A stretch of 64,000 nucleotides of DNA from Escherichia coli. Its GTDB lineage: Bacteria; Pseudomonadota; Gammaproteobacteria; Enterobacterales; Enterobacteriaceae. This document shows positions 17,370 to 22,128 of this stretch, in pieces; the stretch's first letter is position 1, and every line of letters starts with the position of its first letter. The translations under genes were made by a program, and so were the position numbers. The notes beneath the pieces were generated by a model, which was given only the letters and a program-made list of their open reading frames with translations, was not told the origin of the DNA and ran no database searches. The DNA lies in NCBI RefSeq assembly GCF_003334305.1, contig NZ_QOWS01000009.1. The stretch is one strand, 5' to 3'.

Positions 17370-17630
17370 TCTACTGTGGATAACTCTGTCAGGAAGCTTG
17401 GATCAACCGGTAGTTATCCAAGGAACAACGGTTGTTCAGTTTTTGAGTTGTGTATAACCCCTCATTCTGATCCCAGCTTATACGGTCCAGGATCACCGAT
17501 CATTCACAGTTAATGATCCTTTCCAGGTTGTTGATCTTAAAAGCCGGATCCTTGTTATCCACAGGGCAGTGCGATCCTAATAAGAGATCACAATAGAACA
17601 GATCTCTAAATAAATAGATCTTCTTTTTAA
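17370..17630. other. oriC: Chromosomal replication origin oriC: DnaA boxes R4 (17375-17383), R3 (17413-17421), R2 (17449-17457), R5M (17500-17508), R1 (17555-17563); AT-rich 13-mers R/M/L (17577-17620)
   Basis: TTATCCACA / TTATACACA 9-mers in canonical order and spacing, three GATCTnTTnTTTT-type 13-mers, dense GATC sites, position between mioC and mnmG. Confidence 0.93.
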
Positions 17631-17730: not shown

Positions 17731-19620
17731 ATGTTTTATCCGGATCCTTTTGACGTCATCATCATTGGCGGGGGTCATGCAGGCACCGAGGCCGCGATGG
17801 CCGCGGCGCGTATGGGTCAACAGACTCTGCTTTTGACACACAATATCGACACTCTGGGGCAGATGAGCTGCAACCCGGCGATCGGCGGTATTGGGAAGGG
17901 ACATCTGGTAAAAGAAGTGGATGCACTCGGCGGTCTGATGGCGAAAGCGATCGATCAAGCGGGTATCCAGTTTAGGATACTAAACGCAAGCAAAGGACCG
18001 GCGGTTCGCGCTACCCGAGCTCAGGCGGATCGTGTGCTCTACCGTCAGGCGGTACGTACGGCGCTGGAGAACCAACCGAACCTGATGATCTTCCAGCAGG
18101 CGGTTGAAGATCTTATTGTCGAAAACGATCGCGTGGTCGGTGCTGTTACCCAAATGGGACTGAAGTTCCGTGCCAAAGCCGTCGTGCTCACCGTTGGGAC
18201 GTTCCTCGACGGTAAAATTCATATCGGTCTGGATAATTACAGCGGTGGCCGTGCTGGTGATCCGCCGTCCATTCCGCTTTCTCGCCGTTTGCGTGAACTG
18301 CCGCTGCGCGTTGGTCGTCTGAAAACCGGGACACCACCGCGTATTGATGCTCGAACTATCGACTTTAGTGTGCTGGCGCAACAGCATGGCGATAACCCAA
18401 TGCCGGTATTCTCGTTTATGGGCAATGCGTCCCAGCATCCCCAGCAGGTGCCGTGTTATATCACTCATACCAACGAGAAAACCCATGATGTGATCCGCAG
18501 TAACCTCGATCGTAGCCCAATGTATGCAGGGGTGATCGAAGGTGTCGGCCCACGCTACTGCCCGTCGATCGAAGACAAAGTCATGCGCTTCGCCGACAGA
18601 AATCAGCATCAGATCTTCCTTGAACCGGAAGGGCTGACTTCTAACGAAATTTATCCGAACGGTATCTCCACCAGCCTGCCGTTCGATGTGCAGATGCAAA
18701 TCGTCCGCTCTATGCAGGGGATGGAAAACGCGAAGATCGTGCGTCCGGGTTATGCCATTGAGTATGACTTCTTCGATCCTCGCGACCTGAAACCGACGCT
18801 GGAGAGCAAGTTTATCCAGGGGCTGTTCTTTGCTGGTCAGATTAACGGCACTACCGGTTACGAAGAAGCCGCTGCGCAAGGTTTGCTGGCCGGTCTTAAC
18901 GCTGCCCGTCTGTCTGCTGACAAAGAAGGTTGGGCTCCGGCGCGTTCTCAGGCCTATCTCGGCGTACTGGTTGATGACCTGTGCACTTTAGGAACCAAAG
19001 AACCGTATCGTATGTTTACTTCGCGCGCAGAATATCGTCTGATGCTGCGCGAAGATAATGCGGATCTGCGTTTGACTGAAATCGGTCGTGAACTGGGCCT
19101 GGTGGATGACGAACGTTGGGCGCGCTTTAACGAGAAACTTGAGAATATCGAGCGTGAGCGTCAGCGTCTGAAATCGACCTGGGTAACCCCGTCGGCGGAA
19201 GCTGCAGCCGAAGTGAATGCTCACCTGACTGCGCCGCTTTCCCGTGAAGCCAGTGGTGAAGATCTGCTGCGTCGTCCGGAAATGACTTATGAAAAATTAA
19301 CCACGCTGACGCCGTTTGCCCCTGCGTTGACAGACGAACAGGCGGCGGAACAGGTTGAGATTCAGGTTAAATACGAAGGTTATATCGCGCGCCAGCAAGA
19401 TGAGATCGAAAAGCAGCTGCGTAACGAGAACACCCTGCTACCAGCGACACTGGATTACCGCCAGGTATCCGGTCTTTCTAACGAAGTGATCGCCAAACTT
19501 AACGATCACAAACCGGCCTCTATCGGCCAGGCTTCACGTATTTCTGGCGTCACGCCTGCGGCCATCTCCATTCTGCTGGTGTGGCTGAAAAAACAGGGTA
19601 TGCTGCGTCGTAGCGCATAA
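17731..19620 (+). CDS. mnmG: tRNA uridine-5-carboxymethylaminomethyl modification enzyme MnmG/GidA (629 aa)
   Basis: FAD-binding N-terminus [22 protein letters not shown]; conserved position. Confidence 0.95.
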
Positions 19621-19683: not shown

Positions 19684-20307
19684 GTGCTCAACAAACTCTC
19701 CTTACTGCTGAAAGACGCAGGTATTTCGCTTACCGATCACCAGAAAAACCAGCTTATTGCCTACGTGAATATGCTGCATAAATGGAACAAAGCGTACAAC
19801 CTGACTTCGGTCCGCGATCCTAATGAGATGCTGGTACGCCATATTCTCGATAGCATTGTGGTGGCACCGTATCTGCAAGGTGAACGGTTTATCGATGTCG
19901 GCACCGGTCCTGGACTGCCTGGCATTCCACTCTCTATCGTGCGTCCTGAAGCCCATTTCACTCTGTTGGATAGCCTTGGTAAACGCGTGCGTTTCCTTCG
20001 TCAGGTGCAACATGAGCTTAAACTGGAGAATATTGAGCCAGTACAGAGCAGGGTAGAAGAGTTTCCTTCAGAGCCGCCATTTGATGGCGTAATTAGCCGC
20101 GCTTTTGCCTCTCTGAACGATATGGTGAGCTGGTGCCACCATCTTCCTGGTGAGCAAGGCCGTTTCTACGCGCTGAAAGGGCAAATGCCGGAAGATGAAA
20201 TCGCTTTGTTGCCCGAAGAATATCAGGTCGAATCAGTGGTTAAACTTCAGGTTCCAGCCCTGGATGGCGAACGTCATCTGGTGGTGATTAAAGCAAATAA
20301 AATTTAA
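19684..20307 (+). CDS. rsmG: 16S rRNA m7G527 methyltransferase RsmG/GidB (207 aa); GTG start
   Basis: SAM-binding motif [14 protein letters not shown]; co-transcribed position after mnmG. Confidence 0.93.
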
Positions 20308-20804
20308 TTTTTATCAAAAAAATCATAAAAAATTGACCGGTTAGACTGTTAACAACAACCAGGTTTTCTACTGATATAACTGGTTACATTTAACGCCACG
20401 TTCACTCTTTTGCATCAATAAGATAACGTGGCTTTTTTTGGTAAGCAGAAAATAAGTCATTAGTGAAAATATCAGTCTGCTAAAAATCGGCGCTAAGAAC
20501 CATCATTGGCTGTTAAAACATTATTAAAAATGTCAATGGGTGGTTTTTGTTGTGTAAATGTCATTTATTAAAACAGTATCTGTTTTTAGACTGAAATATC
20601 ATAAACTTGCAAAGGCATCATTTGCCAAGTAAATAAATATGCTGTGCGCGAACATGCGCAATATGTGATCTGAAGCACGCTTTATCACCAGTGTTTACGC
20701 GTTATTTACAGTTTTTCATGATCGAACAGGGTTAGCAGAAAAGTCGCAATTGTATGCACTGGAAAAATATTTAAACATTTATTCACCTTTTGGCTACTTA
20801 TTGT

Positions 20805-20832
20805 TTGAAATCACGGGGGCGCACCGTATAAT
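20805..20832 (+). promoter_or_regulatory. atp operon promoter (-35 TTGAAA 20805-20810, -10 TATAAT 20827-20832, 16-bp spacer)
   Basis: Near-consensus sigma70 hexamers read directly about 90 bp upstream of atpI. Confidence 0.6.
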
Positions 20833-20923
20833 TTGACCGCTTTTTGATGCTTGACTCTAAGCCTTAAAGAAAGTTTTATACGACACGCGGCATACCTCGA
20901 AGGGAGCAGGAGTGAAAAACGTG

Positions 20924-22128
<1,205 letters not shown>

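What the first reader, a model, noticed from the sequence alone, without database searches (positions are those of the whole stretch)
20308..20923. Unusually long AT-rich untranslated region between rsmG and atpI
About 600 bp with no ORF of 60 aa or more precedes the atp operon. It contains the candidate atp promoter and several short palindromes. Its length leaves room for an unannotated small RNA or small protein, though I see no convincing candidate.
Basis: inference. Interest (0 to 1): 0.2.

Follow-up and report, generated by a model that had tools for sequence, protein, structure and literature searches.

The report
Control region upstream of atp operon
This 616-base gap in E. coli is the non-coding control region of the ATP synthase operon, not a hidden gene, and it is ordinary apart from a length and internal spacing that are unusually fixed among enteric bacteria.

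Summary
It is a 616-bp gap at 35.6% G+C between rsmG and atpI of E. coli, unannotated in MG1655 and present in 5425 of 5426 complete E. coli genomes.

The suggestion of a hidden small RNA or small protein is not supported. No ORF of 8 or more codons is conserved outside the promoter. There is no conserved RNA structure on either strand, no Rfam match, and atpIp1 is the only promoter conserved in 46 taxa.

The gap is a composite:
- the rsmG 3' UTR with a terminator-like hairpin;
- an AT-rich upstream region reported as H-NS-bound, which carries an ArcA box (20510-20527) and a CRP site (20664-20679), both already found by published ChIP or SELEX;
- the promoter TTGAAA-16-TATAAT;
- an 85-nt leader.

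The part I did not find described is the fixed spacing. The gap is 612-621 bp in about 60 Enterobacteriaceae species, while the neighbouring 63-bp gap varies from 53 to 116 bp. The CRP site lies 163 bp from the -10 in 45 of 46 taxa. Several invariant blocks have no assigned factor.

Verdict: known regulatory DNA, low to moderate interest.

The parts
20308..20439 (+). rsmG 3' untranslated region. It ends in a terminator-like hairpin (arms 20392-20402 and 20425-20435) followed by a run of seven T at 20433-20439. A second inverted repeat lies at 20348-62/20380-94.
   Evidence: The hairpin region folds at -15 kcal/mol, z -2.6. The whole 3' UTR folds at -33.6 kcal/mol, z -4.9. The inverted repeats were found. 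A hairpin plus T-run occurs at the equivalent of about 20410 or about 20434 in 24 of 46 taxa, with different stem sequences. The first 138 nt fold better than shuffles in many taxa: median z -1.64, against -0.53 for the next 138 nt. No 3' end is listed here in the Term-seq tables searched, so termination at this point is inferred.
20382..20427 (.). Block A. It holds the near-invariant palindrome GGTTA-CATT-TAAC, then TTCAC / ..TC / ATAAC, giving an 'AC' every 11 bp. In most taxa it reads as an ArcA-like direct-repeat box on the minus strand.
   Evidence: TTAAC at 20390-94 is conserved in at least 87% of 46 taxa. The ArcA matrix gives a median of 11.2 bits on the minus strand at 20390-20407, with 8 bits or more in 34 of 46 taxa; E. 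coli itself is weak, 10.0 bits at 20401-18. No binding data resolve this site.
20452..20486 (.). Block B: ATAAGTCA..GAAAATATCAG..GCTAAAAA. The core GAAAATAT at 20465-20472 is invariant in both families. No factor is assigned.
   Evidence: Conservation comes; pairwise identity of the core is 0.95. There is no conserved match to the IHF, Fis, Lrp, Fur, FNR or CpxR consensus. The block is not repeated elsewhere in the window beyond chance.
20510..20527 (+). ArcA box CTGTTAAAACATTATTAA, made of two TGTTA-type direct repeats 11 bp apart. Its centre is 320.5 bp upstream of the inferred transcription start.
   Evidence: Park et al. 2013 (PMC3798270, Tables S1, S3, S4) list an ArcA binding region 'atpI' with exactly this box. 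Their ChIP-seq and ChIP-chip peaks convert to window positions about 20561 and 20592. A matrix built from 114 other ArcA boxes scores it 13.2 bits in E. coli, with a median of 15.5 bits over taxa and 8 bits or more in 41 of 46.
20530..20547 (.). Block C2: ATGTCAAT-N5-GGTTTT. ATGTCAAT and GTTTT are invariant. On the minus strand it reads TTGACA. No factor is assigned.
   Evidence: TTGACA-N15-TAACAT on the minus strand scores as promoter-like in 31 of 46 taxa. However, the spacer is 15 bp and E. coli has TAACAG, so it is probably not a promoter. It occurs only once in the window.
20565..20579 (.). Block D: TTATTAAAACAGTAT. In E. coli it is a direct repeat of part of the ArcA box, 55 bp downstream of it.
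   Evidence: Direct repeats D1 (TTAAAACATTAT / TTAAAACAGTAT) and D2 (AAATGTCA, two copies) were found. The sequence GTTTTAAAAA.AGT is moderately conserved. It lies under the published ArcA ChIP-seq peak.
20611..20652 (.). The least conserved spacer. Its sequence is close to random among genera but its length is fixed.
   Evidence: Pairwise identity is 0.38 against 0.27 expected at random, yet the spacer is 42 bp in 41 of 41 Enterobacteriaceae. An IS91-family element sits at about 20631 in E. coli UMNF18.
20664..20683 (.). CRP site TGTGATCTGAAGCACG (20664-20679, centre 20671.5, which is -167.5 from the inferred start). Invariant flank extends it to GCACGCTTT.
   Evidence: The site is present with 3 or fewer mismatches to TGTGA-N6-TCACA in 46 of 46 taxa. 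Haycocks et al. 2015 (PMC4287617) list this exact 16-mer under a CRP ChIP-seq peak assigned to atpI in ETEC. Shimada et al. 2011 (PMC3105977) found atpI as a CRP SELEX target and measured lower promoter activity in a crp mutant. The distance to the -10 is 163 bp in 45 of 46 taxa. It is 164, 162 and 171 bp in three more distant Enterobacterales contigs.
20705..20716 (.). Block F: TTTACAGTTTTT in E. coli and ATTTGCAGTTTT in most taxa. No factor is assigned.
   Evidence: No conserved -10 lies at a usable distance.
20760..20800 (.). Promoter-proximal upstream element, almost invariant. It holds the imperfect palindrome 20760-20785, which contains GAAAAATATTTAAAC (a Fis-consensus-like 15-mer centred at -70), followed by TTCACCTTTTGGCTACTTA.
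   Evidence: Pairwise identity is 0.90 over 20762-20838. The Fis pattern GNNYAWWWWWTRNNC, with 1 mismatch allowed, starts at 20762 in 30 of 46 taxa. The palindrome was found. AATTGTTCACCTTTT..CTA is kept even in contigs whose RsmG is only 64-67% identical. Fis or UP-element function is my reading of the sequence, not a tested result.
20805..20832 (+). Main atp promoter (atpIp1): -35 TTGAAA at 20805-10, a 16-bp spacer, and -10 TATAAT at 20827-32. The inferred start is G at 20839.
   Evidence: It matches 11 of 12 consensus positions. It is the only promoter-like site conserved in 46 of 46 taxa, median score 10.8. Position 20839 is 7 nt after the -10. It equals the classical '73 bp before the old uncI GTG', with that GTG at 20912; the classical figure is from my memory of 1980s mapping and was not re-read here.
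20839..20923 (+). atpI 5' leader of 85 nt, with the Shine-Dalgarno sequence AGGAG at 20908-20912.
   Evidence: Pairwise identity is 0.90 among 41 Enterobacteriaceae. The fold is not better than shuffles, z +1.56. There is no conserved consensus structure. The upstream in-frame GTG at 20912 is not kept in other genera.

Best explanation
The gap is non-coding control DNA made of four parts.

(1) 20308 to about 20439 is the 3' end of the rsmG transcript. It is a structured 3' UTR that ends in E. coli in a hairpin followed by a T-run.

(2) About 20440-20760 is an AT-rich far-upstream regulatory region of the atp operon, reported to be bound by H-NS. It carries an ArcA box about 320 bp upstream of the start and a CRP site 167.5 bp upstream. 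It also carries several invariant blocks whose binding factors are unknown.

(3) 20760-20838 is the strong sigma-70 promoter atpIp1, with an A/T-rich UP-like or Fis-like element at -78 to -53.

(4) 20839-20923 is the 85-nt atpI leader.

Proposed mechanism:
- RNA polymerase starts at about 20839.
- cAMP-CRP bound at -167.5 raises promoter activity. That position is exactly 12 helical turns from the classical -41.5 position and about 10 turns from -61.5, so CRP lies on the same face of the helix as a classical activating site.
- CRP therefore probably acts through a bent or wrapped upstream DNA path, which would explain why distance is conserved but sequence is not.
- ArcA-P and H-NS occupy the more distal AT-rich part and modulate or dampen expression when respiration is low.

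What is shown: the sequence anatomy, its conservation and spacing, and, from the literature, in vivo binding of CRP and ArcA and lower promoter activity in a crp mutant.

What is inferred: the start site, termination at the hairpin, the Fis/UP role, and the wrapping or looping mechanism.
For: Identity of the locus.

No gene is hidden in the gap:
- No conserved small ORF.
- No conserved RNA structure on either strand.
- No Rfam match.
- Only one conserved promoter.

Conservation has the pattern of protein-binding DNA. Invariant blocks of 5-20 bp are separated by spacers of near-random sequence and fixed length.

Gap length:
- 612-621 bp in about 60 Enterobacteriaceae species, with one at 597.
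- In the same taxa the mnmG-rsmG gap ranges from 53 to 116 bp and atpE-atpF from 34 to 69 bp.

CRP:
- A 16-mer matching the consensus is present in 46 of 46 taxa.
- It lies 163 bp from the -10 in 45 of 46 taxa, and 162-164 bp in two more distant lineages whose intervening sequence is unrelated.
- The same 16-mer lies under a CRP ChIP-seq peak in ETEC.
- atpI is a CRP SELEX target with reduced promoter activity in a crp mutant.

ArcA:
- The published ChIP-chip and ChIP-seq region and box are exactly at 20510-27.
- An independent matrix scores it 13.2 bits in E. coli and a median of 15.5 bits across taxa.

H-NS: the gap is listed as H-NS-bound in two ChIP studies, as compiled in PMC3661553.

Terminator: hairpin plus T-run in E. 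coli, and analogous hairpins with different sequences in 24 of 46 taxa.
Against: - A CRP site at -167.5 is far outside the positions from which CRP is known to activate directly (-41.5 to about -93).
- atpI is absent from Park et al.'s tables of ArcA-dependent or ArcA-regulated operons. ArcA binding may therefore have no effect under their conditions.
- The gap tolerates large insertions. A natural IS91-family insertion sits at about 20631 in one strain, and engineered 7-kb cassettes have been placed in it in E. coli and Salmonella. The distal part is not needed for viability.
- One distant lineage has the CRP site 171 bp from the -10, off phase by +8 bp, and another lacks it.
- I could not obtain any transcription-start map for the gap. 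An E. coli-specific extra transcript is not excluded, and short extracellular RNAs with 5' ends at 20436/20437 have been reported.
- Fis or UP-element function, and the identity of the factors for blocks A, B, C2, D and F, are untested.
Confidence: 0.75

Rival explanations
1. The gap encodes an unannotated small RNA. This could be an independent gene or an RNA derived from the rsmG 3' UTR, and the invariant blocks would be its functional sequence.
For: - Ozoline's group lists the gap as a 'promoter island'.
- The same group reports abundant short extracellular RNAs with 5' ends at MG1655 3922927/8 on the minus strand, which is window 20436/20437.
- The E. coli rsmG 3' UTR folds much better than shuffles, z -4.9, and 15 of 41 taxa have z below -2.
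Against: - No conserved promoter other than atpIp1 on either strand.
- Consensus folding energy is 0 across 20308-20640 on both strands, with no covariation.
- No Rfam hit.
- No 3' end inside the gap in the Term-seq tables searched.
- Nothing is annotated in MG1655 RefSeq, which does carry recent small RNAs such as RbsZ nearby.
- The reported 5' ends fall inside the T-run after a hairpin, which is an unlikely start site.
- The two best-conserved blocks are already explained as ArcA and CRP sites.
Confidence: 0.1
2. The CRP site serves a second, CRP-dependent atp promoter 40-70 bp downstream of it. This would give a long-leader atp mRNA, and the fixed distance to atpIp1 would be incidental.
For: - Class I or class II geometry would put a start at about 20713-20745.
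- E. coli has weak candidates there, TTTACG-17-CATGAT and TTTACA-16-CAGGGT.
- Block F (TTTGCA in most taxa) resembles a -35 element.
Against: - No -10-like hexamer with the essential A2 and T6 is conserved at the required distance.
- No plus-strand position in 20680-20760 reaches a median score above 3.
- In distant lineages the sequence after the CRP site is unrelated, yet the distance to atpIp1 is kept at 162-164 bp. That points to atpIp1 as the partner.
Confidence: 0.1
3. The gap encodes a small protein.
For: There are about 20 ORFs of 8-30 codons in the gap.
Against: - Outside the promoter block, the best ORF is intact in only 9 of 61 species.
- Substitution rates are equal at the three codon positions.
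- The two ORFs of 8-9 codons that look 'conserved' lie on the minus strand. One is inside the -35/spacer region and the other is inside the invariant leader. They are conserved because that DNA is.
Confidence: 0.03
4. The distal, strictly spaced blocks are not atp regulators. They would be a chromosome-level cis element near oriC, 2.7 kb away, such as a nucleoid-protein scaffold, a topological barrier between the gid and atp transcription units, or a replication-linked site.
For: - The pattern of blocks and fixed spacers resembles that known for oriC (from memory).
- The blocks lie 300-450 bp from the promoter, and ArcA binding had no reported effect on atp expression.
- H-NS binding is reported.
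- The spacing from block A to the -10 varies by only 435-439 bp in Enterobacteriaceae.
Against: - There is no cluster of DnaA boxes, only a single 8-of-9 match at 20779.
- There is only one conserved GATC, and it is part of the CRP site.
- The distal blocks are not kept in more distant Enterobacterales that keep the same gene order.
- Insertions are tolerated.
Confidence: 0.05
5. Apart from the promoter, the gap is neutral AT-rich filler, for example what was left when the parAB genes found between gidB and atpI in other gamma-proteobacteria were lost.
For: - The gap is widely used as a 'neutral' integration site.
- A parAB pair lying between gidB and atpI in other orders is my recollection and was not tested here.
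Against: - The length is fixed to within a few bp over about 60 species, while neighbouring gaps vary two-fold.
- Blocks are invariant across two families.
- Only about 7 indel events occur over 520 bp in 46 taxa.
Confidence: 0.02

Closest known systems
Upstream-bound CRP at the E. coli guaB promoter (site near -117.5, with UP element and Fis sites; Husnain, Busby and Thomas 2009, recalled from memory, not re-read)
   Same: A strong, growth-rate-controlled housekeeping promoter with an A/T-rich upstream element. A CRP site lies far beyond the classical class I positions, and its effect depends on helical phase.
   Different: Here the site is still further away, at -167.5. The published effect is activation, whereas at guaB it is down-regulation. 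Phase dependence is inferred only from evolutionary constancy of the distance and has not been tested.
rrnB P1-type promoters (UP element plus Fis site I at -71)
   Same: A near-consensus core promoter is preceded by an invariant A/T-rich block. The 15-mer GAAAAATATTTAAAC fits the Fis pattern and is centred at -70.
   Different: No Fis binding data were obtained. The spacer is 16 bp and the discriminator is not G+C-rich. The conserved region extends 450 bp upstream rather than about 150.
ArcA boxes with direct repeats (Park et al. 2013, PMC3798270)
   Same: It is one of the 128 boxes used for their logo, with two TGTTA-type repeats 11 bp apart under a ChIP peak.
   Different: It lies about 320 bp from the start site. 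Most repressing ArcA sites overlap the promoter. No ArcA-dependent change in atp expression was reported.
'Promoter islands' of Panyukov and Ozoline 2013 (PMC3661553)
   Same: The rsmG-proximal 340 bp of this gap is one of their 78 islands and is marked as H-NS-bound.
   Different: Most islands sit in horizontally acquired DNA. This one is core DNA conserved in register across two families. My simple consensus scan finds no excess of promoter-like sites: 1 found against 2.3 expected.
oriC of enteric bacteria (conserved protein-binding blocks separated by spacers of fixed length and free sequence; Zyskind et al. 1983, from memory)
   Same: The same evolutionary signature is seen: invariant short blocks and indel-free variable spacers.
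   Different: There is no cluster of DnaA boxes, no AT-rich 13-mers and no cluster of GATC sites. No replication function is suggested.

Membership tests
Sigma-70 promoter (atpIp1) | -35 and -10 hexamers close to TTGACA and TATAAT with a 16-18 bp spacer | tested here: met
   TTGAAA-16-TATAAT matches 11 of 12 positions. It is conserved in 46 of 46 taxa.
Sigma-70 promoter (atpIp1) | Mapped transcription start | not testable with these tools
   No start-site table could be read. Position 20839 is inferred from the -10 and from my memory of 1980s mapping.
CRP binding site | Match to TGTGA-N6-TCACA | tested here: met
   TGTGATCTGAAGCACG matches 8 of the 10 specified positions. A match with 3 or fewer mismatches is present in 46 of 46 taxa.
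CRP binding site | Occupied by CRP in vivo or in vitro | not testable with these tools
   Literature only: a ChIP-seq peak with this 16-mer in ETEC, and a genomic SELEX hit with reduced promoter activity in a crp mutant.
CRP class I / class II activation | Site centred at -41.5 (class II), or at -61.5, -71.5, -82.5 or -92.5 (class I) | tested here: not met
   The centre at 20671.5 is -167.5 from the inferred start. It is on the same helical face, 12.0 turns from -41.5, but far outside the classical range.
ArcA box | Two or more TGTTA-like direct repeats 11 bp apart, scoring within the range of known boxes | tested here: met
   It scores 13.2 bits with a matrix built from 114 other boxes (training minimum 9.7, tenth percentile 11.8). 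The median across taxa is 15.5 bits.
ArcA regulon member | ArcA-dependent change in expression of the downstream operon | not testable with these tools
   In the literature, atpI appears in Tables S1, S3 and S4 (binding) but not in S5-S8 (expression) of Park et al. 2013.
Intrinsic terminator (of rsmG) | G+C-containing hairpin directly followed by a T-run | tested here: met
   An 8-bp stem GCCACGTT/AACGTGGC is followed by TTTTTTT, at -15 kcal/mol. The consensus scanner missed it because the loop is 22 nt.
Intrinsic terminator (of rsmG) | RNA 3' end at the T-run | tested here: inconclusive
   No 3' end in the gap appears in the Term-seq tables searched. rsmG may be too weakly expressed to be listed.
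Small regulatory RNA gene | Own promoter and terminator, with conserved sequence or structure as RNA | tested here: not met
   There is no conserved second promoter, no consensus structure or covariation, and no Rfam match.
Small protein gene | ORF with start, frame and stop conserved, and codon-position bias in substitutions | tested here: not met
Promoter island (Ozoline group) | Very high density of predicted overlapping promoters | tested here: inconclusive
   It is listed as an island in PMC3661553. Their predictor was not available. A simple hexamer scan finds 1 site against 2.3 expected.
H-NS-bound region | AT-rich DNA occupied by H-NS in ChIP | not testable with these tools
   G+C of 20308-20760 is 33.8%. 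Binding is taken from the compilation in PMC3661553, where the letter K marks the Kahramanoglou and Oshima data. The primary tables are not held.

The most novel reading that the evidence does not exclude
The 450 bp upstream of the atp promoter may form one phase-locked nucleoprotein assembly. In it, CRP at -167.5, ArcA at about -320 and one or more still unidentified factors would be held at fixed distances. The unidentified factors would bind the invariant blocks GAAAATAT, ATGTCAAT-N5-GGTTTT and GGTTACATTTAACC. The assembly would wrap or loop DNA onto RNA polymerase, so that spacer length rather than spacer sequence is what selection preserves. If so, the 'neutral' atpI-gidB integration site used in many engineered strains would disrupt a conserved regulatory device for ATP synthase expression.
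Probability: 0.3. Interest if true: 0.45.

Novelty: already known. Interest (0 to 1): 0.25.

Why it matters
The practical result is negative and useful. One of the longest unannotated gaps in the E. coli chromosome does not hide a conserved small RNA or small protein. It is the control region of the ATP synthase operon, and its two best-conserved distal blocks are CRP and ArcA sites already in the literature.

Two points could matter beyond that.

First, spacing is very strictly conserved. The CRP site stays 163 bp from the -10 across two families, and about 162-164 bp in lineages where the intervening sequence is unrelated. That is a clean natural case for asking how an activator works from 16 helical turns upstream.

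Second, this gap is a popular 'safe' chromosomal integration site. The conservation suggests that insertions there separate conserved regulatory sites from the atp promoter, which may subtly change energy metabolism in engineered strains.

Tried and rejected
Data I could not reach:
- Transcription-start maps. Thomason 2015 is not held. The Ettwiller 2016 GTF was cut when stored. The Kim 2012 supplements had no hit. No Conway 2014 supplements are held.
- Fis and H-NS primary tables (Kahramanoglou 2011) are not held.
- Weaver 2019 small-protein data are not held under the DOI I tried.
- The Kuhlman and Cox insertion coordinate could not be found.

Searches that did not help:
- The search for homologous proteins with AtpI returned only close relatives, so it gave no wider sampling.
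- The representative search plus contig look-ups did give four more distant loci.
- McCloskey 2018 mentions atpI only as a failed knockout.

Hypotheses considered and dropped:
- Conserved small ORFs.
- Conserved RNA structure.
- A conserved minus-strand promoter, TTGACA-N15-TAACAT. The spacer is too short and the -10 is broken in E. coli.
- Periodicity of 10-11 bp in the conservation profile. It was not significant: 118 of 2000 shuffles reached the observed power. AA/TT phasing showed no 10.5-bp signal.
- Conserved IHF, Lrp, Fur, OmpR, PhoP, CpxR and PdhR consensus matches. None were found.
- Single matches inside the invariant promoter block: a NarL heptamer, an FNR-like site and a DnaA-box-like site. 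They cannot be told from chance.
- ArgR binding. The published weak ChIP-chip signal was not confirmed by ChIP-exo.
Full report
**What is there**

The window is the oriC region of Escherichia coli. On the plus strand it reads:
- mnmG, 17731-19620;
- rsmG, 19684-20307;
- a gap, 20308-20923;
- atpI, with its ATG at 20924;
- atpB.

The same 616-bp gap in MG1655 (NC_000913.3 3922441-3923056) carries no annotated feature. It is the longest of 47 gaps in the surrounding 50 kb. It is 35.6% G+C, against 49-52% in the flanking genes. It is present at 95% identity or more in 5425 of 5426 complete E. coli genomes.

The longest ORF contained in the gap is 30 aa. The single sigma-70 consensus match is TTGAAA-16-TATAAT at 20805-20832. 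Three inverted repeats exist.

**Comparative data**

A scan of one genome per species with RsmG gave 80 loci. Of these, 65 contained both rsmG and atpI. Three results stand out.

1. Gap length. It is 612-621 bp in 59 Enterobacteriaceae species of many genera, including Escherichia, Citrobacter, Kluyvera, Enterobacter, Klebsiella, Raoultella, Kosakonia, Pluralibacter, Cedecea, Siccibacter and Atlantibacter. One species has 597 bp. Five Erwiniaceae have 711-825 bp. In the same taxa the neighbouring mnmG-rsmG gap, 63 bp in E. coli, ranges from 53 to 116 bp. The atpE-atpF gap, 61 bp in E. coli, ranges from 34 to 69 bp.

2. Identity. Identity to E. coli is 59-79% outside the genus. It is very uneven along the gap:
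   - 20760-20923 is about 90% identical.
   - The upstream 450 bp has a median of 56% identity to E. coli.
   - Four-fold degenerate sites of rsmG show 44%.

3. Pattern. The upstream part consists of short invariant blocks separated by spacers. The spacer sequence is close to random but the spacer length is fixed. For example, 20611-20652 has pairwise identity 0.38 against 0.27 expected, and is 42 bp in 41 of 41 species. Only about seven indel events occur over 520 bp in 46 taxa. The Erwiniaceae differ mainly by one insertion of 10 bp, with the extra length lying next to rsmG.

**Is it a gene?**

No ORF of 8 or more codons outside the promoter block keeps its start, frame and stop in more than 9 of 61 species. 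Substitutions are spread equally over the three codon positions.

Sliding-window RNAalifold on 41 non-redundant sequences gives a consensus energy of 0 on both strands from 20308 to 20640. The only 'helix' found is the TGTG....CACG palindrome of the CRP site. A single run over the whole 20308-20445 also gives 0. Rfam gives only chance-level hits.

A position-weight scan for sigma-70 promoters in all 46 taxa finds one conserved promoter, atpIp1. A promoter-like TTGACA-N15-TAACAT on the minus strand is present in 31 of 46 taxa. It has a 15-bp spacer and a broken -10 in E. coli, and it coincides with the ArcA box and the neighbouring block.

I conclude that the gap holds no conserved small-RNA gene and no small-protein gene.

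**What the conserved blocks are**

From the sequence alone I read 20664-20679 (TGTGATCTGAAGCACG) as a CRP site. I read the repeated GTTAA motifs with 11-bp spacing as ArcA-type direct repeats (notes). The literature confirms both.
- CRP, in vivo: Haycocks et al. 2015 list exactly this 16-mer under a CRP ChIP-seq peak assigned to atpI in ETEC.
- CRP, in vitro and function: Shimada et al. 2011 found atpI by genomic SELEX and report lower promoter activity in a crp mutant.
- ArcA: Park et al. 2013 list an ArcA binding region 'atpI' from both ChIP-chip and ChIP-seq. Its box ctgttaaaacattattaa converts to window 20510-20527.

I built a matrix from 114 of their other boxes. It scores this site 13.2 bits in E. 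coli, with a median of 15.5 bits across taxa and 8 bits or more in 41 of 46. It also finds a second ArcA-like box on the minus strand at 20390-20407 in 34 of 46 taxa. Chance expectation is 1.65 hits of 8 bits or more per gap. atpI is not among their ArcA-dependent operons.

The rsmG-proximal 340 bp is one of the 78 'promoter islands' of Panyukov and Ozoline and is marked there as H-NS-bound.

The blocks GAAAATAT (20465-72), ATGTCAAT-N5-GGTTTT (20530-47), GGTTACATTTAAC (20382-94), 20565-79 and 20705-16 match no consensus I could test. They remain unassigned.

**Geometry**

With the start taken as G at 20839, the CRP centre is at -167.5 and the ArcA box centre at -320.5. Position 20839 is 7 nt after the -10. 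It also agrees with my memory of the classical mapping, 73 bp before the old GTG start at 20912.

The distance from TGTGA to the -10 is 163 bp in 45 of 46 taxa. The distance from the ArcA box to the CRP site is 152 bp in 37 of 46 taxa, and 163-164 bp in Erwiniaceae, roughly one helical turn more.

Four more distant Enterobacterales contigs were reached through a representative search with AtpI. Their RsmG is 62-67% identical to that of E. coli. They keep the gidA-gidB-atpI order, with gaps of 364, 506, 488 and 202 bp. Three of them keep a CRP-like site 164, 162 and 171 bp from the -10, although the sequence in between is unrelated. The distal blocks are not kept.

Position -167.5 is exactly 12 turns of 10.5 bp from -41.5. 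A distance that is conserved while the sequence is free argues that CRP works together with atpIp1 through a defined DNA path, by bending or wrapping. This step is inference.

**The two ends of the gap**

The first 130 nt are the rsmG 3' UTR. In E. coli they fold at -33.6 kcal/mol, z -4.9, and end in an 8-bp hairpin followed by seven T. Analogous hairpins with T-runs, built from different sequences, occur at the equivalent of about 20410 or about 20434 in 24 of 46 taxa. Across taxa the first 138 nt fold better than shuffles more often than the next 138 nt do.

Short extracellular RNAs reported by the Ozoline group have their 5' ends at window 20436/20437, inside the T-run. I cannot say whether they are processing products or starts.

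The last 85 nt are the atpI leader. It is 90% identical among genera, but its fold is no better than shuffles and it has no consensus structure.

**Evidence that the distal part is dispensable in the laboratory**

- One E. coli strain, UMNF18, carries a 1.8-kb IS91-family insertion at about 20631, in the least conserved spacer.
- Cassettes of 7 kb have been placed in this gap in E. coli.
- A supercoil sensor has been placed in it in Salmonella.
- It was chosen as an insertion locus because of its size.

**Verdict**

The finding is real but ordinary. It is the known control region of the atp operon plus the 3' end of rsmG. The hidden-gene idea is not supported.

What I did not find described is the strict conservation of length and spacing over about 450 bp upstream of the promoter, together with several invariant blocks that have no assigned factor. 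This is worth a modest follow-up, also because the gap is used as a 'neutral' integration site.

Noticed in passing
window 20977 (MG1655 3922387, minus strand), 53 nt inside atpI: Published Term-seq tables list a very abundant RNA 3' end here, with scores of about 92,000 and 135,000, and it is not marked as Rho-dependent. With a start at about 20839 this implies a fragment of about 139 nt made of the leader plus the first 18 codons of atpI. It could be a processing product; RNase E cleavage in uncI is known from my memory. The fold of 20839-20985 is unremarkable.
   Followed up: partly
window about 19626, minus strand (MG1655 3923737/8, plus strand), at the mnmG-rsmG hairpin CCTGGTAAGCACCCGCTTACCAGG: The same tables list an antisense 3' end here. 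Some transcript therefore runs antisense through rsmG and stops at what looks like a bidirectional terminator. Its start could lie in the gap, where E. coli has minus-strand promoter-like sites: TTGGCA-19-TATGAT with its -10 at 20603-20598, and another with its -10 starting at 20327. These sites are not conserved in other genera.
   Followed up: no
window about 20631; L083 3825-5652: E. coli UMNF18 has an insertion of about 1.8 kb in the least conserved spacer of the gap. It carries an IS91-family transposase and a hypothetical ORF. It separates the ArcA box and the distal blocks from the CRP site and the promoter.
   Followed up: yes
L086, L087/L088, L089, L091: These are unnamed metagenome contigs of more distant Enterobacterales, with RsmG 62-67% identical to E. 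coli. They keep the gidA-gidB-atpI order, with gaps of 364, 506, 488 and 202 bp. L089 is only 25% G+C in the gap and has its CRP-like site 8 bp further from the -10. L091 has no such site.
   Followed up: partly
L084 (ENA ERZ27235562 k119_4941): The 190 bp upstream of atpI look like the E. coli promoter region with every C written as G. This is probably a sequencing or assembly artefact, and I excluded the contig.
   Followed up: no
window 20510-20537, minus strand: A perfect -35 hexamer TTGACA (20536 to 20531) and TAACAT (20515 to 20510; TAACAG in E. coli) are conserved 15 bp apart in 31 of 46 taxa. They are probably not a promoter. They could still bind RNA polymerase, in line with the 'promoter island' description.
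   Followed up: partly
window 20593-20594 and 20637 in the alignment: In the alignment the five Erwiniaceae differ from Enterobacteriaceae inside the conserved region by insertions of 8 and 2 bp. A second alignment places these as a single 10-bp insertion after 20594. The total of 10 bp is about one helical turn, so the helical phase between the distal blocks and the CRP site is kept.
   Followed up: partly
window 17389-17620: oriC lies 2.7 kb upstream of the gap. This follows from converting the MG1655 annotation to window coordinates.
   Followed up: no
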